A stretch of 33,831 bases of DNA, taken from a virus (Duplodnaviria > Heunggongvirae > Uroviricota > Caudoviricetes). The notes below the pieces were generated by a model. The model did no database searches. It was not told where the DNA came from and was given only the letters and a program-made list of their open reading frames with translations. The translations under genes were made by a program, and so were the position numbers. Every line of letters begins with the position of its first letter. Position 1 is the stretch's first letter. Positions 19,532 to 33,646 of the stretch are shown one piece after another. Where the stretch lies: IMG/VR virus record IMGVR_UViG_3300033463_000034; one strand, written 5' to 3'.

Positions 19532-19549
19532 AGTTTAATCCTCCTCTAT

Positions 19550-20263
19550 TTATTTTTGGCTATTTTGAGTATTTATGCAAGCAGAAATCCATGCAGGTAT
19601 AGAGCTTTCATTATTTTCAATATTGAAAGTTGTAACTGTTGAATTTTCTTCTTCTGTTGTATTTTCATTTTTAGCTATATCCTCTGAATCAAAATTAACC
19701 TTATTTCTTACACAAATTACAGATAATTTTGCTTCAATTTCATCTAAGCTATATTCATTAATATGTTCTTTAACATCTTTCTTATCTTCATCTGATAACA
19801 TATAAAAACTATTAATTAAATTATTTTTCTTTTCAGTTTCTACTTGATTTTTAAATTCAACTAATTCATTATATTTACTTTCTAATTCAGAATAAGATGC
19901 TTTTAAAGAATTATAATCTTCTAAAGAAAATTCAGATTCAGCATTTGCTTCTTCCGTAACTTCTTCAGATTCATTTTCTACTTCTGTATTTTCAATTTCT
20001 TCTTCTACAGGAGTTTCTTCTTCTTGTTCTCCATTAGATTCTTCTTCAGTTTCAGCTTCAGTATTTTCTTCTTCTTCAACTTCAGGTTCTTCTATGCTTT
20101 CTTCAGCTTCACTTTCTTCACTAAATTCAGCTTCAGGAGTTTCTTCTACAGAAGTTTCTTCTGTGTCAATAGAAGCTTCAGCAGTTTCTTCTTCTACTAC
20201 TTCTTCAACATTTTCAGTTTCTGCAGCAGTTTCTTCGATAACTTCTTGATTTTCTATTTCCAT
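19550..20263 (-). CDS. Possible nested in-frame scaffold protein, 237 aa
   Basis: Perfect AAGGAGG sits 6 nt upstream of an internal ATG (20261-20263, ..ALEGGKN-M-EIENQ), exactly at the start of the acidic region. Confidence 0.55.
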   Translation of the reverse strand: MEIENQEVIEETAAETENVEEVVEEETAEASIDTEETSVEETPEAEFSEESEAEESIEEPEVEEEENTEAETEEESNGEQEEETPVEEEIENTEVENESEEVTEEANAESEFSLEDYNSLKASYSELESKYNELVEFKNQVETEKKNNLINSFYMLSDEDKKDVKEHINEYSLDEIEAKLSVICVRNKVNFDSEDIAKNENTTEEENSTVTTFNIENNESSIPAWISACINTQNSQK

Positions 20264-20968
20264 ATTTTTTCCTCCTTCTAATGCAAATTTTAAATCTTGC
20301 ATCATAGTAAATAATGTGTGTTTAAAATCATCATCTACTTTACTAAAAGTTGAACTTACTTGTGGAGCTGTTACGCTAGCACCTTCAAAACAAGGTTCAA
20401 CATCTTCTCCTAAGATACATAATTTAGAAAAAATTGCATCATTAATTATGAAAAAATCCATACCTGTTTTAGTATTAGTTGACCAATGTCCATCTAAACT
20501 TTCTTCATCTAATTCCATAGATTGATTATTTCCTTTTTCAATAACTCTTTTAGCTTCTTCGTATTGTCCAGTCCATAAAAAACCAGTAGTCATTAAATAT
20601 TCTCTTGTTATTTTATTTCCAAAATCATCAGTATCTTCAAATTCTTGAAACCATACTTTTGCATCTGGAGCAACAAAACCATAAGGTTTAGTTAAACAAT
20701 TAAATTTAATTCCTTCATCATCAAAGATAACTTGTTCTCCATGATCTGCGAAGTCTTCTTTTTCTTCTTTATAATATCCTACAATAGGAGCCCCTCTTAA
20801 TGTTTTTGCCATGTCTGCGGCAACTTCTTTAGTTATGTAGCTATGATTTCTATTTTCTCCTACATATAAAACTTTAATCTCACATTTAGACATTAAAGGA
20901 TTAATATCTAAAGGTTGAAGATTAATGAATTCAGGAGAACTAATTGTTGCAATTGATTGATGCATCAT
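19550..20968 (-). CDS. Prohead protease-scaffold fusion, 472 aa
   Basis: N-terminal globular domain (KVLYVGENRNHSYI..LRGAPIVG..QSMEL..FSKLCILG..PCFEGA) followed by a very acidic low-complexity linker and a coiled-coil C-terminus; lies directly after the portal. All 4 Trp are TGG. Confidence 0.75.
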   Translation of the reverse strand: MMHQSIATISSPEFINLQPLDINPLMSKCEIKVLYVGENRNHSYITKEVAADMAKTLRGAPIVGYYKEEKEDFADHGEQVIFDDEGIKFNCLTKPYGFVAPDAKVWFQEFEDTDDFGNKITREYLMTTGFLWTGQYEEAKRVIEKGNNQSMELDEESLDGHWSTNTKTGMDFFIINDAIFSKLCILGEDVEPCFEGASVTAPQVSSTFSKVDDDFKHTLFTMMQDLKFALEGGKNMEIENQEVIEETAAETENVEEVVEEETAEASIDTEETSVEETPEAEFSEESEAEESIEEPEVEEEENTEAETEEESNGEQEEETPVEEEIENTEVENESEEVTEEANAESEFSLEDYNSLKASYSELESKYNELVEFKNQVETEKKNNLINSFYMLSDEDKKDVKEHINEYSLDEIEAKLSVICVRNKVNFDSEDIAKNENTTEEENSTVTTFNIENNESSIPAWISACINTQNSQK

Positions 20969-21032
20969 AATAATTCCTCCCTTAAACTATATTAATATCA
21001 ATTTTTGCTTTATAAAATTTTGATTTTTTGTC

Positions 21033-22640
21033 CTAAGATTGAGATTCTTTATTTTGAATAGTTTTCTCAGTAACATCTTCACCTTTAGACTCATTTGTTG
21101 GTCTTCCAGCTTCATCATTTGTTGAATCGGCATTTCCGCCATTTTTATTTTGTTCATTAACTCTATTAAGTACATCAGAGTTCATTGTACTAGACATCAT
21201 AGGTGGAATAAATACATTAATTAAATCTAATATATCATTTTCAAAATATGCATTAGCAAGTATAGAACTTTGAGATTGACCTAGTGCAATTTGTGCTAAT
21301 AATTTACTATAACCTAATTGCATTTGTTCTTTATATAATTTAGCCATTTCTTTATAATTATAAATAGTTGTTGTTAATAATTGTATTCTATAATATATTT
21401 TCTTTGGAGTCTTATTAAATCTTTTAATTAAATAATTTAAAAAATCTTGAAAACTTAACAATAAATTATATAATGATGCTTCATCATTTAAAATTGATTT
21501 TTCAAGAGCAATATTACCATCAGTATTAAATTGCATTTGAGAAATACCTGCTTCATTAAATACAGTTCTTTCTACTTTCTCTAAATCATCTACTGTTGTT
21601 GTAGTATTTCTATCAGCCATATCTGCAACTTCTACATCTGCAAAAGTAGTTAAAACATCTATTCCAATTGCTTTACCCAACATATTAACAGCATTATTAT
21701 GAAGTTGTTGAGCTTCATCTACATCAAATATTAAATCTCCATTTTTATCTAAAGGCATTTTTTGAATTATAATTTTTAATAATTTTTGCAACATTTTCTT
21801 TCTATCTAATTCTTGTGCATCATTTAAATCAATGATTGCTGGAATAACAGATATAAGAACTGGGAAATCTTCCCCATTAATATTAAATTTAATTGTGTTA
21901 TTTATATCTAATAAATACCATCCTGCAGTATCTCCAGCAAAATCTGGCACCAATTTTCCATTTTTGTAAAGAATATAACCTTTTTTAAATTCTTTTGGAA
22001 ATAAATTTAATACTTTCATTCTTTGATTTGCATCTTTAAATGCTTCATCAAAATATTTCATATTAAATTCTACTGCAGGTCTTCCGCCAACTTTATATCT
22101 AGAACGACAATATTGGATAGGAAGCTCTTGTATTTGAGTTATACTATCTTCTTCAATAATATAACCATAATAACATCCATTTTTAATAACTTTTAAAGCG
22201 ACTTCTCCAAAATATTTTTTTACACCAAAATTATCAAAATAATCAAGGACTTGATGAAATGTATTTAAAATTTTAGTATCTTTTAAATTTTCATCATTAA
22301 TATAAGGAGTTACCATTCAGTCATATCTATACATATATGCTAAATAACGACATAATCTGTTATAAATACCACTTACTCTATAAAAGAAATTAGAAATATC
22401 TCTCATTGTTTTTAAATCATTTTGGGCTATTGCTTTTAAAACAACACCTTTATTAGCAAGTCTTGGATCTACTCTTTTTAAACTAGAATTGATATCAAGA
22501 GTTGCATCTTCTAATGTTTGTAACCCTACTTTAATTTTTGAAAAATCAACAGGAATATATTCTTCACTTGGAACTCTGGTGTCATTAGGAGTCATAACAA
22601 ATCCTTTCTTTTTTATTTCTTGGATTCTATTATTTATCAA
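21033..22640 (-). CDS. Portal protein, 535 aa (code 4)
   Basis: Track ORFs 22317..22661 and 21033..22316 are contiguous in frame across TGA 22317 (YMYRYD-W-MVTPY). Likely TTG start at 22640 after AGGAGG; stop is TAG. Position between terminase and protease. Confidence 0.85.
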
Positions 22641-22674
22641 AGTAGACACCCTCCTTTGCAATTAAATCAGTATA

Positions 22675-23043
22675 TTAAAAACCGCCAAGATTATAATAAG
22701 CTTTCATAATATAATCATAATCAATATAACTTTCATCTGTATATGGAATAGCTATTAAAATTATATTATGTTTTCTACAATATTCTCTTTTTAGCATATC
22801 ATTATACTGTTGTTTTTTTAATCCACTGTTCCCGCCAAATTTACTTTTGGCTGTATAATGTTGAATTCCTTGATATTCAATTAAAAATCATAATTCTCCA
22901 TCATCATCAAAAACAGCAAAATCAAAACGAAGAGGTCTTCCATTTGAGCTGCATAAATCAGAAAAAGAATATTCTTCTTCAAAAATTAAACCTGATTGTT
23001 GTAAAACTTCTTCAATTTTTATTTCTCCTCTACTAGCTCTCAT
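22675..23043 (-). CDS. Small PD-(D/E)XK / Vsr-like (DUF559-type) endonuclease, 122 aa, absent from the ORF track (code 4)
   Basis: ATG 23043 with GGAGGTG RBS: MRASRGEIKIEEVLQQ..FEEEYSFSDL..RPLRFDFAVFDDDGEL-W(TGA 22888)-FLIEYQGIQHY..YNDMLKREYCRKHNIILIAIPY. The RFDF..IEYQG.QH..D..K..YC pattern is typical of this family. Confidence 0.8.
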
Positions 23044-23149
23044 TTCTACACCTCCTACAATATATTTAATATACTGTAGTTACATTTTCATGTTTCCTAC
23101 AGTATTATAATTTTTATCTTAATAAAATAATCTATTTTTACCCAGCGGC

Positions 23150-24910
23150 TTATTTTTTATTTGTAAAAAACATCATATCACTAATATTTCGTTTTTTTCT
23201 CTTTTTCTTTTTATCTTCTTCTTGTTTAATATAATAAAGTCCATATTCAAAAGCAGAAAATTTATCCTTAGGAATTGCACGATTACTTTGTTTTAAAATA
23301 ATATTTACACCTTCATTTTCTTCAGCTAAATTTAACATTTGTTCTCTTAATATTGTTGTAAGAGTAAAAGGTAATAAATAATCTCCTCTTTTATCACTAT
23401 CCATATTTTGTCCAATTTTTGTAGACATTAATTTCACTTTTGCTTGACCTTCATCTATTAAAAACTTAATTTTTCCACTCATTAATTGAGTTTGTACATA
23501 AGTATGAGCTTCTGTATTAATTGCCGCATTTGCTTTAATTAAATACATAGCATCATCTTCAACTCCTGGACCTTTTATTTTTTTATAAGGTTCAATAGCT
23601 TCTTCAGATGTTCCACCTTCAACTCCAAAAGGAGGAAGTTCTTCACCTGTTTCTGGATCTACTTGTCCCTTTGTCATAAAATCAATTAATCCAGCTCCTA
23701 AACCATTGGCATCAATAGCCATAATTTTAGCTTTATATTTATAAAATAATTTTTTAATATTTATTGCTTGTTTTTCAAAATCTTCTGCATCATAAGAATA
23801 TAAATTTACAAGTGTCTTTAATGCTGCACCTTGCACTTGCGGAGTAACTTTAAAAATACAAACTTCAGTAGTACATTTAAAACGTCCAACATCGACACCT
23901 AATATATAATAAGCATTTTTACTACTTCGTCCACTATATTCATATTCTGGTTGCAATAAAACTCTATGTTTATCAAATTTTTCTGCAGAGAAGAATGCGT
24001 TTTCTGCATCTCCACTTCATTCAGATTCATATTCACGAGCAAATGAACTATCATTATAAGTTCCATCTAATTTAAGTTCTTCAATAAAAGATTTTTTAAG
24101 TAACTTTTCCATTACTGGAACTCGTCAAGTTCCACCTAAAACAACAGCTTCCGCAGGTTCAATAATTTGTTGAATAAGTATTTGAATTAATTTCTCATAA
24201 GCAAATGAATTTTTTCATCCTGCAGTTGTTACATAAATTTGAGATTTATTAACGGTTTCTTCTTCATGTCTACTTCCATCTGCCAATCTTCTATCAACGT
24301 TCATAGTGGGAATAATAACTTCATTTAAAAGAGTTTGATCAATAAGAATACACTCTTCCATAAGTCCGCCAGTAGCACGTTTACCACGGGAACTTTGTTG
24401 TGCCGCAATAATATCTAACCTACTACCATTTTTAAATTTATACTCAACCATATTTTTACTAGCTTTTGTTTGACCTCTTGTTCAATCTATTTCATTTTTT
24501 AAACCAGGAATTAACTTACAAAGCTCTTCTGCTTTTTCTCTTGCAATTCCCGCAGCTTGTTCCTTACCACCTGTAGTAACAAATAAATGGGAATTAGGAT
24601 ATAAAATACATCTAAGCATTAAAATTAACACTGATAAAAATGATTTAGAATAAGCACGAGGAAATGTAGCATAAGCATATCTATGACGCATTACAGCTCT
24701 TAAAAATACTCTTTGATAAAAGAATAAATTAAAATTTTCAGGATTGTTTTCTCCGCATAAAAATTCAACAAAAATATCAGGATATTCTCTTCAAAATGCT
24801 ACATATTCTTTTATAATAGGTAAATTTTCTTTTATTCTTTCTTCTGATAAACCAACTTTTTTTATTAAAGATTTATTTTTAGATAATTCCATTAAATCCG
24901 CAAGAGCCAT
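23150..24910 (-). CDS. terL: Terminase large subunit, 586 aa (code 4)
   Basis: Track ORFs 24482..24691, 24215..24451 and 23150..23956 plus the upstream part share one frame across TGA 24791, 24482, 24215, 24125 and 24017. Walker-A-like PRAYSKS, Walker-B LMEE, motif III YVTTAG, RNase H-like nuclease motifs ILGVDVGR, IDANGLG and KDKFSA. ATG is coupled to the upstream TAA. Confidence 0.92.
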
Positions 24911-26151
24911 TAGCTATCACTTCCTTCATTATCAGAATAAGTATCTAAATCTTTTTCTTTTTGAGCTTCAACTTCTTCCATAAAAGCGGCATAATCTTCA
25001 TCTTCAATCTCAGTAACTCCATCTTGAGCAGCTGCTTCCGCCTCATTCATTTCTTTTTGAATTTGAATTTTCTTTAAAGCATCTTCAATTTGTTGACCAA
25101 AACCTAAATCTTGAGTAACTAATTTATGAAGATAATCATTCATATCTTTTAAAGTTAAATCAACTTTATCTTGAGGAATATCTGTTGCATATCTAGGAAT
25201 AAAACCATCTTTTTCACACATTGCAACTAATTCACCTACGCTATCAACAAAATCATTTTTATCTTCTTTATTTTGCGCTGCCGTAAATTTAGCTGATTTT
25301 CTTAATGATTCAGATACTTTTGATAATTTTTGAAAACCATCAACATCTCCAATATCAAGAGATTGATTCATTTTAAGATTTGTTTTACAAATTAATATTA
25401 ATGTATTAATTGTATCTGCATCTTGAATATCAAAAGACTCAGTCATTTCATTATAAATTCTTTCTAATTCAACTCATTCTGCAGGCTTATATAATCTACC
25501 TCATTTCATGGCTAAATATAATTTATCATCTTGAGTTAATTCTGCCGCAGTATCTATCATATCATCTTCAGACATATAATCATTTTCATTCATTCCAATT
25601 GAACCATTCATATTTGGTATTTGTCCAATAGGCAATAGAGTTGGATCTATAACAGGTTGTTCTTTATGTTTAGTTTCTGTTGAAATTAATGTTTTATATT
25701 CAGCTTCTGAAATTTCCCCAGCTTCAAATTTCTCTTTCGCTTCTGCCTCTCTTTGAGCTGCTTCCGCCGCATGTTGTTCTGCTCTTTCTTTATATCTTTG
25801 TTGTAATCTTTCACTATCTTTTCAACCAATAGGCTCACCAGTTTCTGGATCAAATTTTCATTGTTTTAATTTCATTTTAGATAAATATCTTCCAAATACT
25901 GATTGGCTAGTTAATTTACTAGGATCTTTTTCATAAATTCTATCTCTTAAAGTATTCCATTCTGCGGGAATATAAGGAACATCCATTTTTTCTAATAACC
26001 ATAGAAATGTACTTTCATCAAAATTATTAATATGCATTGTTAAACATTTTTTACATAATTCTGTTTTAGTTCCATCTTTATAAGTAAAAAATTGATTTTC
26101 ATCCATTATCTTGCCGCATTTTTCACAATAATATTTTTCTTTTTCGTTCAT
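24910..26151 (-). CDS. Zn-finger protein, candidate terminase small subunit, 413 aa (code 4)
   Basis: Track ORFs 25858..26151 and 24910..25446 are in one frame across TGA 25858, 25822, 25501 and 25474. N-terminal CEKC..CKKC; translationally coupled to terL. TerS identity is inferred. Confidence 0.7.
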
Positions 26152-26165
26152 ATTTTCACCTCTTA

Positions 26166-27260
26166 TTATCTACTTAATCTATCTTCTTTATTTTTTTTAT
26201 TTCTACAACATTTACAAATACTATATCATCCATCTTTTGAGGTAGAATTTTTAGAAAAATATAAATTATGTGCTAATTTTACTTCTCCACAACGAGAACA
26301 CCTTTTTCATTGACCCTTCTTTTGCGTTGTATAATACCAATTTAAATATCTTTTAACGGCTGATTCCGCCAATAATTTAGGTATTTTATTGCGCCAAAGT
26401 GAACTAATATACTCAACCGAATGTTTTATACCGTGGTTAAGCTCTAGTAAGAACTGGATCTCCGCATTACTTCTACCATCTATTTTATAAATTAATAAAT
26501 CATAATATAAAGGATATTCATCTTTTAATGTGGTTTCAATTAAATTATCTAAGTCTAACATCATATAATAACAATCTCCAGTAAAATGTTCATAACTTTC
26601 TTCTTTTAACATACTATAATTACATAATAAAGCAGAAATATGTTTTGGATTAAAGAAAGAACATAATCCATTACTTACTGGCATACCATTTTTATCAAAT
26701 GTAATTTCTTCATCAAAATCAGCATGTGCAAATGATTTAACTGCATTTGAAATAAAAATAGGTTGTTTAATTGTATTTTTTATTGTATATTGTTCTTGGC
26801 ACATTTCTATTAATTGTTTTTTTAAAGCATATTTTCTTTTACCAGTTGCACGAGCAGCCTGGTTTTTAACATTTTCTATAGCGACATCTAACTCTGCTAA
26901 AGCAGGCATTTCCGCCTTATCTTTAGGCGAGATGTGAATTTTTGGTGTTAATAATACATTTTTATCATTATCTATTGTTATATTATAAAGACCATCTTCT
27001 CCATTTTCAAATTTATTTACCAATCCCTGATAAGATACTTCTCTTTTATTTATTGTAATCATTCTATTGTTTGTTAATATTTCTTTTTTTTGTTTTTCTT
27101 CTTTATCCATAGCTAATACTATATAATTTGATAATATTTCAATATATTTTTCGGTTAATTGATTAGGAGGAGTTTGTCTTACTATTTCTTCTACTAGATT
27201 TTTACGATCTTCCGCATTTTTTAAAGTATAATCAAGTTTAATTTTAGTTTCCACTAGCAA
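26166..27260 (-). CDS. Putative transcription regulator: sigma70-region-4-like HTH plus C-terminal C4 Zn finger, 364 aa (code 4)
   Basis: TTG start after AAGGAG. HTH-like YKIDGRSNAEIQFLLELNHGIKHSVEYISSLWRNKIPKLLA. After TGA 26307: KRCSRCGEVKLAHNLYFSKNSTSKDG-W(TGA 26226)-YSICKCCRNKK, then TAA 26166. Confidence 0.75.
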
Positions 27261-27309
27261 AACTCCTTTCTTTCTATATGTTAATCATCTTTGTCCTATC
27301 TTTATAAAT

Positions 27310-27338
27310 ATTATATTCCAAAAATTTTGAAATGTCAA
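27310..27338 (-). promoter_or_regulatory. Consensus sigmaA promoter driving the minus-strand module
   Basis: TTGACA (27333-27338) - 17 nt - TATAAT (27310-27315), followed by ATTTATA as in the early promoters. Confidence 0.85.
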
Positions 27339-27419: not shown

Positions 27420-27692
27420 ATGAATAAATTAAATATATTAAGAATAAAGATAAAAAAATTTTGGATATGCTATTTATATGGCATAGGCAAATATTTGTTA
27501 TGTGCGGCCGCGGTAGCAGGGTTAATGATTCTTTTAGCAGTGACTGCCGCACCAAAAGTATATTATTATATAGATTATAATGGAAATGAAGGAGTCGCTA
27601 AAAATTGTCAAGTAATTGCCGCAGGTTTAGTATGTGAAAAAATGTATGGTGGTAAAATAATGGTAAAAGAATATTCTGAAATAAGGAGGTAA
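27420..27692 (+). CDS. Hypothetical membrane-anchored protein, 90 aa
   Basis: AAGGTG RBS, hydrophobic stretch YLLCAAAVAGLMILLAVTAA, TAA stop. Confidence 0.75.
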   Translation: MNKLNILRIKIKKFWICYLYGIGKYLLCAAAVAGLMILLAVTAAPKVYYYIDYNGNEGVAKNCQVIAAGLVCEKMYGGKIMVKEYSEIRR

Positions 27693-27697
27693 TTAAT

Positions 27698-27856
27698 ATG
27701 GCAGGATATAGAAATAGAAAAATAAGGATGCCTAGAAATCCTATTGGTAGTCCAAGAAAAATAGCTCAAAGAGGTTTTTATGAAATGTTTAATATTTTAT
27801 TAGGAAATGATGTAAAACCTCGTGATTATGGGAAAAAATTAAGGGATAAAAAATAA
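27698..27856 (+). CDS. Small basic protein, 52 aa (below track cut-off)
   Basis: AAGGAGGT RBS; MAGYRNRKIRMPRNPIGSPRKIAQRGFYEMFNILLGNDVKPRDYGKKLRDKK; TAA stop. Confidence 0.7.
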   Translation: MAGYRNRKIRMPRNPIGSPRKIAQRGFYEMFNILLGNDVKPRDYGKKLRDKK

Positions 27857-28170
27857 AATCGTATATTGTAATTGAAAATAGGCTTGGAGATTTTTGTGTC
27901 GAGGCAAAACCCAAATTTAAAAATCAAAAAAAATTTTTCCTACAATACTACCCCTAGTACCTGGCAAATACGTTCTGTAGCAGGTAAAAACCATGGGCAA
28001 CTAGGTATAAAACATAGGGTCGCAGGCACTCGTTTGGCTGCGAATTTTACATAAGATTTACATATAAATAAAATGTAAACTAAAATAAATAAAAAAATAA
28101 ATTAAATAATTTTTCCTAAAATTAAATAGTAAATTGAATTACCTTGAACCGTATTTAAGGGGAACCTTAG

Positions 28171-28184
28171 CGAACATTCGTTTG
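28171..28184. promoter_or_regulatory. Gram-positive LexA (SOS/Cheo) box
   Basis: CGAACATTCGTTTG matches CGAAC-N4-GTTYG. Confidence 0.7.
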
Positions 28185-28226
28185 TATTAAATAAATTAAA
28201 AAAAATTAATTTTTTTCAAAAAACTA

Positions 28227-28255
28227 TTGACAAATTGCTATTGTTATGTTATAAT
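28227..28255 (+). promoter_or_regulatory. sigmaA promoter P2
   Basis: TTGACA - 17 nt - TATAAT with an extended -10 TG and an upstream A-tract. Confidence 0.9.
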
Positions 28256-28288
28256 TATTATAGAAAAAGAGAAAGAGAGTGCTAGAAT

Positions 28289-28465
28289 ATGGAAAAAGAA
28301 AAACTAATGGAAATGATAGAACAAGTTGAAAATGAATTATTTTGTTTAGATTTAATTGATAGATGGACAATAGAAGATAAAAAACAAGCAAATAAATTAT
28401 ACAAAGAATTAGCACAATTAAAAAAACATTTAGCCGAAATAAAAGTAAAAACTTTAAAAAAATAA
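28289..28465 (+). CDS. Hypothetical protein, 58 aa (below track cut-off)
   Basis: Follows P2 with AAAGAGAG leader; MEKEKLMEMIEQVENELFCLDLIDRWTIEDKKQANKLYKELAQLKKHLAEIKVKTLKK; TAA stop. Confidence 0.75.
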   Translation: MEKEKLMEMIEQVENELFCLDLIDRWTIEDKKQANKLYKELAQLKKHLAEIKVKTLKK

Positions 28466-28475
28466 TTAAAACCTA

Positions 28476-28504
28476 TTGACAAATAGATTTGATTATGATA
28501 TAAT
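28476..28504 (+). promoter_or_regulatory. sigmaA promoter P3
   Basis: TTGACA - 17 nt - TG-A-TATAAT. Confidence 0.9.
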
Positions 28505-28537
28505 TATTATAGAAATAAAGAAAGAGAGTTGAAAATT

Positions 28538-28723
28538 ATGATTAATACAAAAACTATTGAATTAAATTATGAAGAAGCACAAACATTAAGAAGAGCATTA
28601 CTTGATAAAATGCAAGAGATAGACTTAACAAATGCTTTCAATGAACCATACTATAGAGCACTTGATAAATTATACACTAAATTAGAAACAATAGAAGAAG
28701 AATTAGAAGAAGAAAGAAATTAA
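28538..28723 (+). CDS. Hypothetical protein, 61 aa
   Basis: Track ORF 28529..28723; ATG 28538 fits the leader spacing better; TAA stop. Confidence 0.75.
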   Translation: MINTKTIELNYEEAQTLRRALLDKMQEIDLTNAFNEPYYRALDKLYTKLETIEEELEEERN

Positions 28724-28797
28724 TTCTATTTAATAATTCTTCTTCTAATTGAAGAAATATCTAGACAATAGGAAAGATTAAAAAGGAGTTGGCGGAA

Positions 28798-29004
28798 ATG
28801 GGTAGAAAAATAATTAAAGAACTAAAACAAATCAAATGGGAAAATGTTGTTACATTGATAATGATAATATTATTTACAATTAGTTTAATTAATCATATTA
28901 TAATAAATGGATTTTACTTTAATCTAATAACTGAATTATTTGTTGACTTGATGTTTATTTTAGCAATAAGATTTACAATAAAAGAAAGTAAAATAAATAG
29001 ATAA
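28798..29004 (+). CDS. Small two-TM membrane protein, 68 aa
   Basis: AAGGAG 9 nt before ATG 28798; two hydrophobic segments separated by a short loop, with basic ends. Confidence 0.7.
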   Translation: MGRKIIKELKQIKWENVVTLIMIILFTISLINHIIINGFYFNLITELFVDLMFILAIRFTIKESKINR

Positions 29005-29006
29005 AT

Positions 29007-29036
29007 AAAATGCAAACAAATGTTTTTGCATTTTTT
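29007..29036 (+). terminator. Intrinsic terminator
   Basis: AAAATGCAAA/TTTGCATTTT stem running into a T-tract. Confidence 0.7.
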
Positions 29037-29149
29037 GTTATAATAAAATGAAATTGGGAAAAACCTTGCTTTAGGGTAAAAGTAGTGTCAAATTTTGTAA
29101 AGCGGCTTGACGGCTCGGGGTGGGTCAGGGCGAGCCGATTTTGCGTACG

Positions 29150-29163
29150 CGAACATTTGTTCG
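29150..29163. promoter_or_regulatory. Gram-positive LexA box (perfect)
   Basis: CGAACATTTGTTCG. Confidence 0.85.
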
Positions 29164-29216
29164 GATTTCGCCGAATAAAAAACGAAAGCGGAAATGATTA
29201 GTTGTTTTCCTAAAAC

Positions 29217-29230
29217 CGAACAAATGTTTG
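29217..29230. promoter_or_regulatory. Gram-positive LexA box
   Basis: CGAACAAATGTTTG, abutting TTGACA at 29233, which is followed 18 nt later by TG-TAAAAT. Confidence 0.75.
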
Positions 29231-29284
29231 AGTTGACAAAATGTCAAATAAAAGTGTAAAATAAAATTAATTAATAAAAAATTA

Positions 29285-29313
29285 TTGATAAATAAATTAA
29301 TTAATGTTATAAT
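29285..29313 (+). promoter_or_regulatory. sigmaA promoter P4
   Basis: TTGATA - 17 nt - TG-T-TATAAT. Confidence 0.85.
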
Positions 29314-29346
29314 TATTATAGTGAAAGAGAGAAAGAGGTTGAAAAA

Positions 29347-29886
29347 ATGAAAAAAATAGTTAAGGTAGTAATTAATTTAATGGTGTTAGTAAGTGCAGTA
29401 ATGATTACAAAAGCAAGAACTTCCGCAAAGGTTGTAACTCAAGTAATAGTTGAAAAGGAAGAACCTATTGTAATAGTAATGGAAAAAAAGGTTATTGAAA
29501 AAGATATTGCTTTCAATAATGCTAATGAAAAAAATATCTATAATAAAGCAATAGAACAAGGACTAACAAAAGAACAAGCAATGTTATTAATAAGTATCTC
29601 AAGACACGAAACAGGTGCTTGGACTAGTAAAGCATTTAAAAATGATAATAACTTTGGTGGCATAATGAGTAATGGTGGTTTAAAACACTATGAAAGTTAT
29701 GAAGAAGGACTTAATGATTTTGTTAGAATATTAAAAACTTATTACTTTGAAAAAGATTTAAATACAATAGAAGAAATAGGTGCAAAGTATTGTCCAGTTG
29801 GAGCGGCAAATGACCAAAATGGTTTAAATAAATATTGGGTTGGCGGAGTTACTAATTTCTACAATTATTACTTAACTTTAATTTAA
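29347..29886 (+). CDS. Exported/membrane-anchored peptidoglycan glucosaminidase (GH73/PF01832-like, lysozyme-like fold), 179 aa
   Basis: N-terminal signal/anchor MKKIVKVVINLMVLVSAVMIT; catalytic region ISRHETG..KAFKNDNNFGGIM..KHYESYEEGLNDFVRILKTYY..TIEEIGAKYCP..YWVGGV, typical of this family. Confidence 0.75.
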   Translation: MKKIVKVVINLMVLVSAVMITKARTSAKVVTQVIVEKEEPIVIVMEKKVIEKDIAFNNANEKNIYNKAIEQGLTKEQAMLLISISRHETGAWTSKAFKNDNNFGGIMSNGGLKHYESYEEGLNDFVRILKTYYFEKDLNTIEEIGAKYCPVGAANDQNGLNKYWVGGVTNFYNYYLTLI

Positions 29887-29899
29887 GCGGCGACCGCAG

Positions 29900-29926
29900 T
29901 CTAGATTTTTCAAATCTAGATTTTTT
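29900..29926 (+). terminator. Intrinsic terminator
   Basis: TCTAGATTT/AAATCTAGA followed by TTTTTT. Confidence 0.8.
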
Positions 29927-29966
29927 CGTGCTTAACCGCTTGCTTCCGCTTCCAACCCGAAAAATG

Positions 29967-29980
29967 CGAACAAATATTCG
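29967..29980. promoter_or_regulatory. Gram-positive LexA box (1 mismatch)
   Basis: CGAACAAATATTCG. Confidence 0.65.
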
Positions 29981-30012
29981 TGTAATAATTTTTCATTGAT
30001 TTGGGGCTTGGG

Positions 30013-30026
30013 CGAACATACGTTCA
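30013..30026. promoter_or_regulatory. Gram-positive LexA box
   Basis: CGAACATACGTTCA. Confidence 0.8.
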
Positions 30027-30069
30027 TATTCCTAAAATTAAAAAAAATAAAAAATATTTAAAAAAAGTA

Positions 30070-30098
30070 TTGACTTTTTACTATTGCTATGGTATAAT
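30070..30098 (+). promoter_or_regulatory. sigmaA promoter P5
   Basis: TTGACT - 17 nt - TG-G-TATAAT. Confidence 0.9.
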
Positions 30099-30130
30099 TA
30101 TTATAGAAATAAAGAAAGAGAGTGGTTAAA

Positions 30131-30325
30131 ATGAATAGAACAGGTTATAAATTAATTGATACAATTACAGGTGAAATAGTAGAGTGTATTTATAGAAATG
30201 TTATTCTAGAAGAAGGACACGAAAGAATGACAAACTATAAAGAAATTTACAACAAAGAGTTTTACTTAGTTGCTATTGATACTACTACTTATGAATTAAG
30301 AGAATATCCTATTCAAAAAAGTTAA
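30131..30325 (+). CDS. Hypothetical protein, 64 aa
   Basis: Track ORF 30122..30325; ATG 30131 fits the leader; TAA stop. Confidence 0.75.
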   Translation: MNRTGYKLIDTITGEIVECIYRNVILEEGHERMTNYKEIYNKEFYLVAIDTTTYELREYPIQKS

Positions 30326-30343
30326 AAACTTTTTGAATAGGTA

Positions 30344-30372
30344 TTGACAAAAATTAATAATTATAGTATAAT
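30344..30372 (+). promoter_or_regulatory. sigmaA promoter P6
   Basis: TTGACA - 17 nt - TATAAT. Confidence 0.9.
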
Positions 30373-30400
30373 TATTATAGTAAGAAAGGGAGTTGATAGT

Positions 30401-30892
30401 ATGGCAAGAAAAATAATTAAGTTTACTAAAAAAGATAAACAATTTATTCAAGACTTTACTAACTCTATCAATAAAAACTTAATAATTGCAATAAGTGAAA
30501 ATAAAAGATTTGAGTGTGATATTCCTAATAATACAATTTATTTAGGACTAAAAAACTTAAATCAAATAGAAAACAACTTATTCAAAAAATGGTTAAAAAA
30601 TGAAAATATAACTATTAAAATGAATAGAAGATTATTAAGTTTGTTACACGAAATAGGACACTTTCAAACTTTCAACGAACAAGAGTTTGAAGATAGAAAC
30701 TCAATGGAAAAAATCTATAATCAAATGTATGAAAATGATTTAATCACTTTTGAAGAATTAAACTTTAATTATTGGAATATGACAAACGAGAAAAAAGCAA
30801 CTTTATGGGGAATACAATATTATTTAGAAAATACAAAAAAATGTAAACAACTAGTTAAAATATTAAAGTTAAATAAATTTGTAAAATTTTAA
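30401..30892 (+). CDS. Putative Zn metallopeptidase (HExxH), ImmA/IrrE-like, 163 aa
   Basis: True start is ATG 30401 after AAAGGGAG (the track start lies in promoter P6). LLHEIGH motif plus a downstream NEKKATLWG helix resembling the E-x-x-A motif of ImmA/IrrE. Confidence 0.55.
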   Translation: MARKIIKFTKKDKQFIQDFTNSINKNLIIAISENKRFECDIPNNTIYLGLKNLNQIENNLFKKWLKNENITIKMNRRLLSLLHEIGHFQTFNEQEFEDRNSMEKIYNQMYENDLITFEELNFNYWNMTNEKKATLWGIQYYLENTKKCKQLVKILKLNKFVKF

Positions 30893-30900
30893 AAAAACTA

Positions 30901-30929
30901 TTGACATAAATAAATAAAAGTGCTATAAT
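30901..30929 (+). promoter_or_regulatory. sigmaA promoter P7
   Basis: TTGACA - 17 nt - TG-C-TATAAT. Confidence 0.9.
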
Positions 30930-30961
30930 ATATATAGAAATAAAGAAAAGGAGTGATAATT

Positions 30962-31120
30962 ATGGCTAAAAGAAAACCAGTAGTTCAAAAAGTAGTAGTT
31001 GACAAAAATGCAAAACAATTTATGAGAACAGCATTAAACCTTGCAAGAAAAGGAAAAACAAACAAAAAATTGCATGGTCGTAATGCTAACCCAAAAGCAA
31101 TGAAATACAACATTGCTTAA
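30962..31120 (+). CDS. Small very basic protein, 52 aa (below track cut-off)
   Basis: AAGGAG RBS; MAKRKPVVQKVVVDKNAKQFMRTALNLARKGKTNKKLHGRNANPKAMKYNIA; has its own promoter and terminator. Confidence 0.8.
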   Translation: MAKRKPVVQKVVVDKNAKQFMRTALNLARKGKTNKKLHGRNANPKAMKYNIA

Positions 31121-31145
31121 GTGTAAAGTAATTTACACTTTTTTT
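31119..31145 (+). terminator. Intrinsic terminator
   Basis: AAGTGTAAA/TTTACACTT followed by TTTTT. Confidence 0.8.
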
Positions 31146-31253
31146 GTTTTAAATTAATACTTTACATTTGGTTGACAGCGGGCCGCCTTCGTGGGTCATT
31201 TCTCGCTGCGGCCCGCATTTTTACAGAGACTTTACATGTAAAGTTTTGTCAAT

Positions 31254-31283
31254 CGAACATTGGTTCTAGCGAACAAATGTATT
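31254..31283. promoter_or_regulatory. Tandem LexA boxes (one good, one degenerate)
   Basis: CGAACATTGGTTCT (31254-31267) and CGAACAAATGTATT (31270-31283). Confidence 0.7.
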
Positions 31284-31318
31284 TTTCCCAAAATTATTAA
31301 AAAAAATTAAAAAAAGTA

Positions 31319-31347
31319 TTGACTTGTTGCCGCCATTGTGCTATAAT
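31319..31347 (+). promoter_or_regulatory. sigmaA promoter P8
   Basis: TTGACT - 17 nt - TG-C-TATAAT. Confidence 0.9.
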
Positions 31348-31376
31348 ATTTATAGAGAAAAGGAAAAGGTGAGAGA

Positions 31377-31778
31377 ATGAAAAAAGTTTACTTAGACATG
31401 GACGGAACTATCGCTAATTTATACACACAAAATAACTGGTTAGAAAGATTAGAAAACGAAGATAAAACAATATTTTTAGATTGTAAGCCAATGACTACAC
31501 AAGAAACATTATTAAAATTATTTCCTATTGATAAATTTGAAATAGTTATCTTAACAATGACACCAAAAAATTGTTCTATTAAATATCATAATCAAGTAAT
31601 AGAACAAAAGAAACAATGGTTAGAAAAGTTTTTCCCAATGTTAAAAAAACAAATATTTATTAAGTATGGAAATAATAAAAACTTAAAAAATAGTGCTAAT
31701 GCAATTTTAATTGATGATAATGCGGTTATTCGTGATAATTTCCGCGGAATTGCACTTAATCCCGCAAACCTTTGGTAA
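31377..31778 (+). CDS. HAD-superfamily 5'(3')-deoxyribonucleotidase-like protein (NT5C-like), 133 aa
   Basis: Motif I VYLDMDGTIANL, motif II ILT, K..WL, motif IV ILIDD. Confidence 0.8.
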   Translation: MKKVYLDMDGTIANLYTQNNWLERLENEDKTIFLDCKPMTTQETLLKLFPIDKFEIVILTMTPKNCSIKYHNQVIEQKKQWLEKFFPMLKKQIFIKYGNNKNLKNSANAILIDDNAVIRDNFRGIALNPANLW

Positions 31779-31806
31779 AAAAAATAAAAAATATTTAAAA
31801 AAACTA

Positions 31807-31835
31807 TTGACAATATTTTTTAAAAATGATATAAT
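31807..31835 (+). promoter_or_regulatory. sigmaA promoter P9
   Basis: TTGACA - 17 nt - TG-A-TATAAT. Confidence 0.9.
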
Positions 31836-31870
31836 TATAATGTAATAAAGAAAGAGAGAGATAAATTAAA

Positions 31871-32614
31871 ATGACAAAGAAAATTGACTTGAAAAAAGAA
31901 AAATATCTACTTTTTGTAGATACTGAAACAATAGGAACTTTAAATGTAAAAGAAAGTGTACTACCATTTGAAATAGGTATTAAAGTATTAGATACTGAAA
32001 CAAATAAAATTGTTAAAGAAAAAAGTTATTTAGTAAGAAAATTCTTTAATAATAAATATATAATGTTATCAACATTTAGTGCTACAAAATATCCAAATTA
32101 TTTTGAAAAGTTAGAAAATGATAAAAGATACAAAACAATGAGTGCTAATGATATTTCAAAAGATTTAGAAAAAACAATTCAAAGATATAATATTAAAATA
32201 ATGGTTGCACACAATGGAAACTTTGACCAACAAGCAATAGCAAGATTATTTGAGGACTTTGGAGTTGAAAATCCACTTGAAAATATTGATTTACTTGATA
32301 CAATGGAAATATCAAAAATAATAACATTTAGTAAAGATTATGCTAACTATTGTATAGAAAATAAAGATAGATTAAATAGTTTAAAAGAAAGTTGTTTTAT
32401 AACTAATAGTGGTAGAGTAAGAACAACAGCACAAGCAATTTATTGCTATTTATCAAATAATGCCGACTTTCAAGAAGCACACACAGGACTTGAAGATATA
32501 GACATTGAAATAGAAATATTTAAAAAATCTATGGAAATGTTAGGAAATACAATAGTAAATCTAAACACTGCACCAACTTGGAGAGATTATTCAAAAGTAA
32601 TTGAAGAAGATTAA
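31871..32614 (+). CDS. DEDDh (DnaQ-like) 3'-5' exonuclease, 247 aa
   Basis: ExoI FVDTETIG, ExoII VAHNGNFD, LDT, ExoIII EAHTGLEDI. Confidence 0.88.
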   Translation: MTKKIDLKKEKYLLFVDTETIGTLNVKESVLPFEIGIKVLDTETNKIVKEKSYLVRKFFNNKYIMLSTFSATKYPNYFEKLENDKRYKTMSANDISKDLEKTIQRYNIKIMVAHNGNFDQQAIARLFEDFGVENPLENIDLLDTMEISKIITFSKDYANYCIENKDRLNSLKESCFITNSGRVRTTAQAIYCYLSNNADFQEAHTGLEDIDIEIEIFKKSMEMLGNTIVNLNTAPTWRDYSKVIEED

Positions 32615-32646
32615 TTCTTCTTCAATTATAAAAAGGTTGTGATATT

Positions 32647-32724
32647 ATGATAAAAAAAATAAAATGGAAAATAGTTTGTATTTGTGCTTGGTTGATAAAT
32701 AAGCAAAATAGATGGGAAGATTAA
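32647..32724 (+). CDS. Putative 25-aa Trp/Cys-rich peptide
   Basis: AAAGGTTGTG leader; MIKKIKWKIVCICAWLINKQNRWED; TAA lies inside the following terminator. Confidence 0.45.
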   Translation: MIKKIKWKIVCICAWLINKQNRWED

Positions 32725-32738
32725 AAATCTTCTTTTTT
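32716..32738 (+). terminator. Intrinsic terminator
   Basis: GAAGATT/AATCTTC followed by TTTTTT. Confidence 0.7.
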
Positions 32739-32751
32739 GGTTGCGGCAATG

Positions 32752-32765
32752 CGTATTTATGTTCG
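32752..32765. promoter_or_regulatory. Degenerate LexA box
   Basis: CGTATTTATGTTCG (reverse complement CGAACATAAATACG), followed by ATTGACA. Confidence 0.5.
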
Positions 32766-32944
32766 ATTGACAAATTATTTACATTTACTTTACGCGGGCG
32801 GCGCGCTCACGATAGAAAAACTTCATTGCGCGCCGAATTTACATAAGGTTTACATATTAGAAAATCTCGTACCGCCGCGATACGCCAGGCTGCGTTGTAA
32901 GATTTTCCCAAAATAAAAAAAATTAAAAAATTTTTAAAAAATGC

Positions 32945-32973
32945 TTGACTTATTTTTAAATAAATGATATAAT
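32945..32973 (+). promoter_or_regulatory. sigmaA promoter P10
   Basis: TTGACT - 17 nt - TG-A-TATAAT. Confidence 0.9.
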
Positions 32974-33006
32974 TATTATAGAAAAAAAGGAAAGGAGATG
33001 ATTGAA

Positions 33007-33201
33007 ATGTCTACAAAAAGTAAATTAATTTATTTAAAAGTTTTAATGAATATTAAAAACAATGTTTACTCACAAAATCAAGCACAATTAAAAAATGATT
33101 TATTAATGATTAAAAGACTTTTAATCATTGAAAATCAAGATAAAACAAACTTACAAAAAATTGAAAAAAATATGCAAAAACTATTGACAAAGGCAAGTTA
33201 A
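33007..33201 (+). CDS. Hypothetical protein, ~64 aa
   Basis: Track ORF 32998..33201; ATG 33007 has the better spacing from AAGGAG. The 3' end overlaps the -35 of P11. Confidence 0.7.
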   Translation: MSTKSKLIYLKVLMNIKNNVYSQNQAQLKNDLLMIKRLLIIENQDKTNLQKIEKNMQKLLTKAS

Positions 33202-33212
33202 TATGATATAAT
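33184..33212 (+). promoter_or_regulatory. sigmaA promoter P11
   Basis: TTGACA - 17 nt - TG-A-TATAAT. Confidence 0.9.
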
Positions 33213-33244
33213 TATTATAGAAATAAAGAAAGAGAGTGATAGTT

Positions 33245-33397
33245 ATGTTAAGATTAGTTGATAGAGTTGAAAATAAAAGTTATAAAGGTTCAAAAAAATC
33301 AATTATGACTTTACTACAATTAAAGTTCAATGAGTACAAATATTATGGAATATTAAAAGGTATTGTTTGTATAAACGATACTTGGTACATAGGTTAA
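33245..33397 (+). CDS. Hypothetical protein, 50 aa (below track cut-off)
   Basis: Follows the P11 leader; MLRLVDRVENKSYKGSKKSIMTLLQLKFNEYKYYGILKGIVCINDTWYIG; TAA stop. Confidence 0.7.
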   Translation: MLRLVDRVENKSYKGSKKSIMTLLQLKFNEYKYYGILKGIVCINDTWYIG

Positions 33398-33412
33398 AAG
33401 GGGGTTGTTAAA

Positions 33413-33646
33413 ATGGTTAAATGGACTGCTCAAGAATTACTAGATACTTTCAATAAAGAAACAAATCTAGAAGAATTAAATGAGTTATACAAAGCACTAA
33501 TTGCTTATAACTTAGGTTGTACTACTATTGAAGAAGATAAACTAAACGAGGTTTTAGAATACTATTACTCTCAAGACTTTATTTATAGTATTATTAATCA
33601 AGATGTAATTGATTATGCTAATGAAATTTTAGAACAAATTCATTAA
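33413..33646 (+). CDS. Hypothetical acidic protein, 77 aa
   Basis: AAAGGGGG RBS, TAA stop. Confidence 0.75.
   Translation: MVKWTAQELLDTFNKETNLEELNELYKALIAYNLGCTTIEEDKLNEVLEYYYSQDFIYSIINQDVIDYANEILEQIH

What the first reader, a model, noticed from the sequence alone, without database searches (positions are those of the whole stretch)
27420..33646. Early plus-strand genes are code-neutral: 17 TGG, 0 TGA, all stops TAA
Seen: across 15 ORFs I count 17 Trp codons, all TGG, and every ORF ends in TAA. Against a TGA-majority late module this is a sharp, strand-aligned partition. Inference: these genes must be expressed by host ribosomes that still terminate at UGA, which argues that the host uses the standard code and the recoding is phage-imposed and temporally controlled.
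Basis: partly seen in the sequence, partly recalled or inferred. Interest (0 to 1): 0.7.

Follow-up and report, generated by a model that had tools for sequence, protein, structure and literature searches.

The report
TGA-free early genes of recoded phage
In this gut or rumen phage, which reads the stop codon TGA as tryptophan in its late genes, a block of small early genes avoids TGA entirely, so they read the same under either code; this is a clean, well-supported example of a code switch during infection that was published in 2021-22, not a new phenomenon.

Summary
On the plus strand of 27420-33646 I ORFs (15 of 40 aa or more). They hold 18 (15) TGG and no in-frame TGA, and all end in TAA. 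The same ORFs hold 100 off-frame TGAs. Late genes in the window use TGA for 55 of 87 Trp codons (Fisher p about 2e-7).

The split follows gene module, not strand. TGA share of Trp codons is 0% in the early block, 8% and 24% in the two replication modules, and 66-74% in the late modules.

In 21 related phage contigs, conserved Trp sites of early genes stay TGG (78 to 1). In late genes TGG and TGA swap freely.

The early genes sit behind consensus host-type promoters: 8 perfect TTGACA-17-TATAAT matches against 0.008 expected.

The contig is truncated. Five larger relatives carry a phage tRNA(UCA), and none encodes a release factor or TrpRS.

The host is not identified. Relatives' contigs are binned with small low-GC Bacilli MAGs of one order, and 97 of 106 genomes of that order have prfB.

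This scan has also found the same pattern on other genomes. "All stops TAA" is not significant by itself.

The parts
27420..33646 (+). Early block: 16 small ORFs in promoter-leader-SD-gene(-terminator) cassettes. No in-frame TGA, 18 TGG, all stops TAA.
27420..27692 (+). 90-aa small membrane protein and first gene of the block. It has 1 TGG and no TGA here, but its homologs in three relatives carry 1-5 TGA.
27698..27856 (+). 52-aa basic protein of unknown function
27896..28054 (+). 52-aa ORF with a GTG start. Doubtful gene: no homolog in the relatives.
28289..28465 (+). 58-aa ORF behind a perfect promoter
28538..28723 (+). 61-aa acidic ORF behind a perfect promoter
28798..29004 (+). 68-aa membrane-like ORF, followed by a terminator-like hairpin
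29347..29886 (+). 179-aa protein with an N-terminal hydrophobic segment and a weak glucosaminidase/lysozyme-like match (below Pfam's cut-off)
30131..30325 (+). 64-aa ORF
30401..30892 (+). 163-aa conserved early protein with invariant HExxH plus a downstream Glu. Zinc-metallopeptidase-like fold, supported only by weak structural matches.
30962..31120 (+). 52-aa lysine/arginine-rich protein, conserved in 18 relative loci. One relative (L028) ends this gene in TGA where 8 others end in TAA.
31377..31778 (+). 133-aa HAD/NT5C-like 5'-deoxyribonucleotidase
31871..32614 (+). 247-aa DEDD-type exonuclease-like protein, syntenic with the exonuclease of Enterococcus phage H1
32647..32724 (+). 25-aa mini-ORF with 3 TGG (doubtful gene)
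32998..33201 (+). 67-aa ORF
33245..33397 (+). 50-aa ORF
33413..33646 (+). 77-aa ORF, the last complete gene before the contig end
27360..33780 (+). Thirteen sigma-A/sigma-70-type promoters with 17-nt spacers, starting at 27360, 28227, 28476, 29285, 30070, 30344, 30901, 31319, 31807, 32945, 33184, 33653 and 33752. Most have a TG extended -10 and a shared TATTATAGAAA...AGAGAG leader. Seven match the consensus 12 of 12 and five 11 of 12; the one at 27360 matches 10 of 12.
27310..27338 (-). Perfect TTGACA-17-TATAAT promoter pointing into the first late-strand gene
26166..27338 (-). 390-aa protein of PHROG 5767 (annotated there as a sigma factor, not confirmed by Pfam) with a C-terminal zinc-ribbon/HNH-like part. 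It has 3 TGA and 3 TGG; 17 of 18 relatives have 1-6 TGA.
2..27338 (-). Late (virion) module that needs TGA as a sense codon. It includes the tape measure (34 TGA), large terminase (5), portal (1) and others. The major-capsid candidate has 0 TGA and 5 TGG.
28171..32765 (+). Eight LexA (Cheo)-box-like CGAACNNNNGTTCG sites (2 mismatches or fewer). Seven lie in GC-rich stretches between the early cassettes; the eighth (30676-30689) lies inside the 30401-30892 gene.

Best explanation
The window is one end of a truncated contig (105 kb; CheckV estimates 70% complete) of a long-tailed phage of about 125-136 kb. Its relatives include the phAss-1 / Enterococcus H1 / Geobacillus E3 group. The phage reads UGA as Trp.

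The plus-strand block 27420-33646 is an early, host-takeover-type module. Each small gene has its own consensus host promoter, leader and ribosome-binding site. The unmodified host RNA polymerase can therefore transcribe it, and host ribosomes can translate it, directly after infection.

These genes are kept free of UGA, both as a sense codon and as a stop. They give the same protein while host RF2 still ends translation at UGA and after the phage's own tRNA(UCA) has built up. That tRNA is seen in all five large relatives and lies beyond this contig's end.

Genes needed later carry progressively more UGA: replication genes 8-24% of Trp codons, virion, glycosylation and tail genes about 70%. 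They can give full-length protein only once suppression is efficient.

Shown here:
- the codon partition and its conservation across relatives;
- UGA = Trp;
- the promoters;
- the suppressor tRNA in relatives.

Inferred:
- the timing;
- the host (a standard-code, RF2-bearing, low-GC member of the Bacilli);
- that suppression is the rate-limiting gate.
For: 1. Partition. Early block 0 TGA / 18 TGG. Window late genes 55 / 32. Genome-wide late modules 139 / 73 and 20 / 7. Fisher p from 2e-7 to 2e-8. The early ORFs hold 100 off-frame TGAs.
2. Selection. At Trp sites of early genes, relatives have TGG 78 times and TGA once. At late-gene sites, TGG in the window pairs with TGA 38 and TGG 38 times, and TGA in the window pairs with TGA 77 and TGG 79 times. 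p = 9e-14.
3. TGA = Trp. TGA aligns with W 13, Y 9, F 5 and G 1 in standard-code Enterococcus H1 and Geobacillus E3 homologs.
4. Early status. The 6.6-kb block holds 8 perfect TTGACA-17-TATAAT promoters against 0.0075 expected. The roughly 63-kb late module holds none. The block is syntenic with the small-gene block of Enterococcus phage H1, including its HAD hydrolase and exonuclease.
5. Phage-imposed. A 96-nt tRNA(UCA) sits next to tRNA-Trp(CCA) in complete relative G002. It is also present in G003 and G005, and is split by an insert in G001 and G004. This phage and four relatives encode no release factor and no TrpRS.
6. Standard-code background.
   - Relatives' sequence in a MAG contig is fully open under code 11, with 8 of 87 stops being TGA.
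   - An early gene in L028 ends in TGA at the family's conserved C-terminus.
   - All cultured relatives infect Bacillota.
   - The endolysin has a CHAP domain.
   - Relatives' contigs lie in 3 MAGs of one Bacilli order, against 1 weak hit in 111 genomes of another order. That order has prfB over the curated cut-off in 97 of 106 genomes.
7. The model is published: Borges et al., bioRxiv 10.1101/2021.08.26.457843.
Against: - No expression data exist. 'Early' rests on promoter consensus and synteny alone.
- The suppressor tRNA is not on this contig, which stops 5 nt after a tRNA-Gln inside the tRNA array.
- The host link is weak. The endolysin and holin match that led to the MAGs proved to be phage to phage. 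Binning is indirect evidence.
- The partition is not absolute.
  - Homologs of the first early gene carry 1-5 TGA in three relatives.
  - An early-region gene in L008/L009 has a sense-like TGA.
  - Several abundant or critical late proteins have no TGA: the major-capsid candidate 0 / 5 and the endolysin 0 / 11. TGA avoidance therefore also tracks something other than timing.
- Pol III alpha needs one UGA read-through here.
Confidence: 0.8

Rival explanations
1. TGA is avoided where translation must be efficient or reliable, not specifically where it must be early. Suppressor decoding is slower and leakier than TGG decoding. Strongly expressed or dosage-critical genes of any stage therefore keep TGG, and the early genes are one such class.
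For: Late-module genes with many Trp codons and no TGA: the major-capsid candidate 0 / 5, the 472-aa head-region protein 0 / 4 and the CHAP endolysin 0 / 11. The early genes have strong consensus promoters and ribosome-binding sites.
Against: The bias covers every early gene, including tiny ones of unknown function. It also covers the first replication module, where gyrase, ligase and DnaB all have 0 TGA. It grades with the expected order of expression. The two ideas are not exclusive.
Confidence: 0.12
2. The host itself reads UGA as an amino acid (a code 4 Mycoplasma-like or code 25 host). The early genes lack TGA for an unrelated reason.
For: One MAG that holds relatives' sequence is labelled 'uncultured Mollicutes'. 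Phage GC is 27%.
Against: - That MAG and 97 of 106 genomes of its order have prfB over the cut-off, and its genes end in TGA.
- TGA aligns with Trp, not Gly.
- Only about half of the genes carry TGA, against about 90% reported for phages of recoded hosts.
- The lineage carries its own tRNA(UCA).
- The CHAP lysin implies a walled host.
- Standard-code relatives exist.
Confidence: 0.04
3. The early cassettes are recently acquired mobile 'morons' from standard-code phages, and they have not yet had time to pick up TGA.
For: The cassettes are modular, each with its own promoter. Seven of the 16 ORFs called, six of them among the 15 searched, have no homolog in the 21 relatives.
Against: The nine conserved genes are shared at 30-88% identity across relatives. 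Over that same divergence late genes exchanged TGG and TGA dozens of times, yet these genes stay at 78 to 1. Imported standard-code genes would also bring TGA stops, and none is present.
Confidence: 0.03
4. Chance or base composition.
For: Only 15-18 Trp codons are involved. TAA is the default stop in an AT-rich genome.
Against: P(0 of 18) = 1.5e-8 at the late-gene TGA share. The same ORFs hold 100 off-frame TGAs. The pattern is replicated in relatives.
Confidence: 0.01

Closest known systems
'Agate' clade of TGA-recoded phages of about 127 kb from animal guts, and the standard-to-alternative code switch model (Borges et al., bioRxiv 10.1101/2021.08.26.457843; later in Nat Microbiol 2022 from my own knowledge)
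   Same: TGA to Trp in structural and late genes, with replication and early genes compatible with the standard code. TGA stops are depleted. Very close standard-code relatives exist. The suppressor tRNA is phage-encoded. The predicted hosts are Firmicutes. The relatives found here have complete or near-complete genomes of 120-136 kb.
   Different: Clade membership could not be tested, as no Agate sequence was at hand. The paper reports lysis genes as the most recoded; here the endolysin has 0 TGA and the holin-like gene has 1. The paper does not describe the promoter-per-gene early cassettes or the codon-by-codon conservation test.
phAss-1 / proposed Phassvirus group (Babkin et al. 2023, PMC10607447)
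   Same: The closest named phage: major-capsid candidate 53% and terminase 42% identical. It is a long-tailed gut phage with recoded virion genes and suppressor tRNAs.
   Different: phAss-1 recodes TAG (code 15) with tRNA(CUA). This phage recodes TGA. The same phage group therefore uses different reassigned stops.
Late-gene TAG or TGA recoding in crAss-like phages (Yutin et al. 2021, PMC7886860) and its metaproteomic validation (PMC9523058)
   Same: The recoding is confined to some gene modules of phages that infect standard-code hosts.
   Different: An unrelated phage order with Bacteroidota hosts and mostly TAG to Gln.
Host-takeover early module of Bacillus phage SPO1 (from my own knowledge, not tested here)
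   Same: An array of many small genes, each with a strong sigma-A consensus promoter and ribosome-binding site, near a genome end.
   Different: No detectable protein homology (PHROG scans). SPO1 uses the standard code throughout.

Membership tests
Stage-partitioned TGA-to-Trp recoded phage of a standard-code host (Borges model) | In-frame TGA in conserved late genes at positions that are Trp in homologs | tested here: met
   W 13, Y 9, F 5, G 1 in standard-code homologs. TGA and TGG are interchanged 117 times at homologous sites in relatives.
Stage-partitioned TGA-to-Trp recoded phage of a standard-code host (Borges model) | Early and replication genes readable under the standard code | tested here: met
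   Early block 0 / 18. Gyrase B and A, ligase and DnaB have 0 TGA. The second replication module has 1-2 TGA per gene.
Stage-partitioned TGA-to-Trp recoded phage of a standard-code host (Borges model) | Phage-encoded UGA suppressor tRNA | tested here: inconclusive
   Not on this truncated contig, which has 6 tRNAs and none with UCA. Present in all five large relatives.
Stage-partitioned TGA-to-Trp recoded phage of a standard-code host (Borges model) | Host uses UGA as a stop (has RF2) | tested here: inconclusive
   The host is not identified. The candidate order, linked through binned relatives' contigs, has prfB in 97 of 106 genomes.
Stage-partitioned TGA-to-Trp recoded phage of a standard-code host (Borges model) | TGA-free genes are expressed before TGA-bearing genes | not testable with these tools
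   Only promoter consensus and synteny are available.
Agate clade (terminase phylogeny of Borges et al.) | The large terminase falls inside the clade with 95% bootstrap support or more | not tested
   No Agate sequences were available. Size, code and predicted host phylum agree.
Code 25 phages of Absconditabacteria/Gracilibacteria | TGA aligns with Gly, and about 90% of genes carry it | tested here: not met
   Gly at 1 of 54 aligned TGA positions. About half of the genes carry TGA.

The most novel reading that the evidence does not exclude
A single suppressor tRNA competing with active RF2 could hardly give full-length products from genes with 15-34 UGA codons. The tape measure has 34, and at 90% read-through per site only about 3% of chains would be completed. 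This lineage has no phage release factor and no TrpRS. One of the small, uncharacterised, strictly UGA-free early proteins may therefore neutralise host RF2. The conserved HExxH zincin-like protein at 30401-30892 is one candidate. If RF2 were neutralised, UGA would be unusable as a stop from the first minutes. That would explain why early genes avoid it as a stop as well as a sense codon. The graded UGA density (0, 8, 24 and about 70%) would then act as a multi-step translational timer.
Probability: 0.15. Interest if true: 0.7.

Novelty: already known. Interest (0 to 1): 0.25.

Why it matters
The finding adds a well-quantified instance to a published model. It offers a simple test for selection that could be used on other recoded phages: early-gene Trp sites stay TGG (78 to 1) while late-gene sites swap TGG and TGA freely. 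It also shows that the partition is graded by module rather than binary or strand-based.

In practice, this genome and its relatives must be annotated under code 4 for late genes. The early block gives ready-made candidates (consensus promoters, small conserved proteins) for anyone who wants to test how a phage takes over termination at UGA. As a discovery it is ordinary.

Tried and rejected
- ARAGORN at relaxed thresholds gave only noise. Rfam at gathering thresholds found the same 6 tRNAs and nothing in the GC-rich spacers.
- No release-factor domain (PF00472) or class Ib tRNA synthetase (PF00579) turned up in this contig or in four relatives, two of them complete.
- The 'sigma factor' label of PHROG 5767 was not confirmed by Pfam, so I do not build on it.
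- I used the endolysin as a host probe. The best bacterial hit proved to be relatives' phage sequence inside a 181-kb MAG contig. That contig holds two divergent copies of the virion module and is probably chimeric. It is therefore not a prophage-in-chromosome link.
- lexA was found in only one of three candidate MAGs. murG-like genes are present but score below the curated cut-off.
- The run of TAG stops in the second replication module is shared only in part by the closest relative and not by two others. I treat it as lineage drift.
- ORFs 29010-29201, 30001-30129, 31172-31300 and 32737-32916 overlie terminators, promoters or GC-rich spacers. I rejected them as genes.
- Foldseek gave no significant PDB match for the HExxH protein. 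VIA-align gave Z of 5.5 or less, almost all to zinc peptidases, which is suggestive only.
One Pfam call failed on a coordinate slip, and one notes look-up failed on a word limit.

Full report
WHAT THE SEQUENCE IS

The window is positions 1-33831 (reverse strand) of a single 105,241-bp virus contig. The contig has 27% GC and no terminal repeat, and CheckV estimates it at 70% complete.

Under code 11 the minus strand of 2-27338 breaks into fragments. Under code 4 it gives long genes:
- a 2850-aa tape measure with 34 TGA;
- a large terminase with 5 TGA;
- a portal with 1 TGA;
- head and tail proteins.

The nearest named phages are phAss-1 (TAG-recoded; major-capsid candidate 53% identical), Enterococcus phages H1, EF1 and VRE9, Geobacillus E3, and Bacillus and Brevibacillus siphoviruses. 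Every cultured relative infects Bacillota.

THE OBSERVATION

I called genes with TGA allowed as a stop and required a ribosome-binding motif upstream. The plus strand of 27420-33646 then holds 16 ORFs, 15 of them 40 aa or longer. All end in TAA. They hold 18 TGG (15 without the 25-aa mini-ORF) and no in-frame TGA.

The result is not circular, because code 4 gives the same genes. It is not compositional, because the same ORFs hold 100 off-frame TGAs.

The window's late genes use TGA for 55 of 87 Trp codons. Fisher p = 2e-7, and P(0 of 18) = 1.5e-8.

Some frames listed mechanically lie over terminators, promoters or GC-rich spacers and are not genes: 29010-29201, 30001-30129, 31172-31300 and 32737-32916.

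'All stops TAA' is close to the default of this AT-rich genome and is not significant alone.

TGA MEANS TRP

In homologs from the standard-code phages H1 and E3, TGA positions align with W 13, Y 9, F 5 and G 1.

In 21 related IMG/VR contigs, TGA and TGG replace each other at homologous late-gene sites 117 times.

WHOLE-GENOME MAP

The partition follows gene module, not strand.

| Module | TGA / TGG | TGA share | Main content |
|---|---|---|---|
| Early block | 0 / 18 | 0% | small early genes |
| Replication 1 | 4 / 44 | 8% | gyrase B and A, ligase, AAA_24 ATPase |
| Replication 2 | 11 / 35 | 24% | DnaB, RecJ-like, SF1 helicase, Pol III alpha, guanylate kinase |
| Glycosyltransferase / Stealth block | 20 / 7 | 74% | sugar-transferring enzymes |
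| Virion, tail and lysis | 139 / 73 | 66% | structural and lysis genes |

Two details qualify these numbers. In replication module 1, two of the four TGAs lie in a GIY-YIG homing endonuclease and the other two may lie upstream of the true starts. In replication module 2, Pol III alpha has a TGA at codon 540, inside its NTPase domain.

The pattern is nevertheless a gradient, and some replication proteins already need read-through.

Within the late modules, the major-capsid candidate (0 / 5) and the CHAP endolysin (0 / 11) avoid TGA. The holin-like gene next to the endolysin has one.

CONSERVATION TEST

For nine early genes with homologs in the relatives:
- window TGG sites are TGG 78 times and TGA once in the relatives;
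- all Trp codons in the aligned parts are 101 TGG and 8 TGA;
- all 8 TGAs lie in homologs of one gene, the first one (27420-27692), in three relatives.

For five late genes the corresponding numbers are TGG to TGA 38, TGG to TGG 38, TGA to TGA 77 and TGA to TGG 79. Fisher p = 9e-14.

TGG and TGA therefore behave as synonymous codons in late genes, and TGA is selected against in early genes.

Two instructive exceptions appear in relatives:
- The small basic protein family of 30962-31120 ends in TGA in L028 exactly where eight homologs end in TAA. That is a real TGA stop in an early gene.
- A longer early-region gene in L008 and L009 has a TGA where L010 and L028 have Phe. That looks like a sense use.

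WHY 'EARLY'

Almost every gene of the block is preceded by TTGAC(A/T)-17-TATAAT. Most have a TG extended -10 and share a leader ending in a purine-rich ribosome-binding site.

The 6.6-kb region holds eight perfect 12-of-12 matches against 0.0075 expected. The whole genome has 12, and the roughly 63-kb late module has none. One of the eight points the other way, into the first late-strand gene. PHROG 5767 labels that gene a sigma factor; Pfam does not confirm the label.

The block is syntenic with the small-gene block of Enterococcus phage H1, which also holds a HAD hydrolase and an exonuclease.

In complete relatives the early region is about 19 kb long. It is made of two convergent, almost TGA-free blocks and abuts a tRNA array.

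THE RECODING DEVICE

This contig has six tRNAs, none with anticodon UCA. It ends 5 nt after a tRNA-Gln, inside the array.

Relatives of 120-136 kb, two of them with terminal repeats, have 23-27 tRNAs. Complete relative G002 has a 96-nt tRNA with a UCA anticodon loop and a second CCA-bearing arm, directly before a normal tRNA-Trp(CCA).

The same gene is intact in G003 and G005. In G001 and G004 it is interrupted in the anticodon loop by inserts of about 200 and 600 nt. The order of tRNAs at this contig's end matches G004, where the suppressor lies about 3 kb further on.

Neither this phage nor four relatives encode a release-factor domain or a TrpRS.

THE HOST

A scan of bacterial genomes with the endolysin found matches in small (1.2-1.6 Mb), low-GC MAGs labelled Bacilli or 'uncultured Mollicutes'.

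The best match (lysin 63% and holin 52% identical) lies in a 181-kb contig. That contig is itself relatives' phage sequence written in the standard code, with 8 of 87 stops being TGA. It carries two divergent virion modules and is probably chimeric. The link is therefore through binning only.

Two observations still favour this order as the host group:
- A DNA search of its 106 species genomes found contigs of relatives in three MAGs.
- Another small-genome Bacilli order gave one weak hit in 111 genomes.

Features of the candidate order:
- prfB scores over the curated cut-off in 97 of 106 genomes, and prfA is also present.
- Its genes end in TGA at the usual rate.
- murG-like genes are present but score below the cut-off.
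- lexA was seen in only one of three MAGs, and that MAG belongs to the other order.

These points, the CHAP lysin, the Bacillota hosts of all cultured relatives and the phage-borne tRNA(UCA) together make a standard-code, RF2-bearing, walled low-GC Bacillota host the most likely one. It is not shown.

COMPARISON WITH WHAT IS KNOWN

Borges et al. (bioRxiv 10.1101/2021.08.26.457843) describe the following:
- TGA-recoded 'Agate' phages of about 127 kb from cattle and other animal guts;
- a standard-code relative at over 90% ANI with only 4 of 146 TGA stops;
- suppressor tRNAs;
- the explicit model that early genes are read in the host's standard code before a switch.

The present finding is an instance of that model.

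Babkin et al. (PMC10607447) describe the TAG-recoded relative phAss-1.

The scan's own notes show the same 'code-neutral early region' reading on other genomes. They also include earlier reports on this genome that reached the same placement. I re-derived the points I use.

VERDICT

What is added here:
- the graded, module-wise map;
- the codon-level conservation test;
- the promoter-per-gene architecture of the early block.

The most novel reading left open is that an early protein neutralises RF2. Without that, genes with 15-34 UGA codons would rarely be completed by competition with RF2 alone. I put this at about 15%.

Noticed in passing
L003:1154-12910 (genome C1 about 72,150-83,910; replication module 2): Nine of the 10 genes of 80 aa or more in this run, from DnaB to the gene after Pol III alpha (the last of them runs beyond L003), end in TAG. 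Every neighbouring module ends in TAA. The closest relative G003 shares this at 5 of 9 genes; G002 and G001 mostly do not.
   Followed up: partly
window 28171-32765: Eight of the window's nine CGAACNNNNGTTCG-like (Gram-positive LexA/Cheo box) sites lie here; seven sit in GC-rich spacers between the early cassettes and one inside the 30401-30892 gene. The window total is 9 against 1.5 expected.
   Followed up: partly
window 30401-30892: Conserved 163-aa early protein with invariant HExxH and a downstream Glu. The AF2 model has pLDDT 93. Its weak structural neighbours are almost all zinc peptidases: PprI/IrrE, abylysin, selecase, BlaR1 and Wss1.
   Followed up: partly
L059:8971-9066; L061:6277-6309 + 6915-6978; L057:290-325 + 530-592: The relatives' tRNA(UCA) is 96 nt long with a second CCA-bearing stem-loop. 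In two relatives an insert of about 600 or 200 nt splits it inside the anticodon loop. This looks intron-like and explains why tRNA finders miss it.
   Followed up: partly
L001:3992-5413 and L001:5427-5861: Lysis cassette. The CHAP endolysin has 11 TGG, no TGA and a TAG stop. The adjacent holin-like gene has one TGA. The published Agate lysis genes are instead reported as the most recoded.
   Followed up: partly
G004:C1:72990-77947; G001:C1:107262-111191: Pol III alpha has 1 TGA here, 0 in three relatives, 6 in G001 and 3 in G004. In G004 an insert of about 1 kb also splits the gene. TGA appears to be invading replication genes lineage by lineage.
   Followed up: no
L003:15675-16613: A GIY-YIG homing-endonuclease-like gene carries 2 TGA and no TGG, inside a replication module that is otherwise TGA-free.
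   Followed up: no
L084-L087, L063 (G007 contig 1, 180,928 bp, 'uncultured Mollicutes' UMGS1109): This MAG contig is standard-code phage sequence related to the window. It holds two divergent, oppositely oriented copies of the sigma-like / terminase / portal / capsid module. It is probably a chimeric assembly binned into a bacterial MAG.
   Followed up: partly
window 33653-33831: Two more near-consensus promoters (one 11 of 12, one 12 of 12) follow the last gene. The first has no ORF behind it, and the contig ends before any gene after the second.
   Followed up: no
L017:5649-5856, L018:6494-6536, L023:4128: Homologs of the first 'early' gene (window 27420-27692, a small membrane protein) carry 5, 2 and 1 TGA. 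This gene may belong to a later class than the rest of the block.
   Followed up: partly
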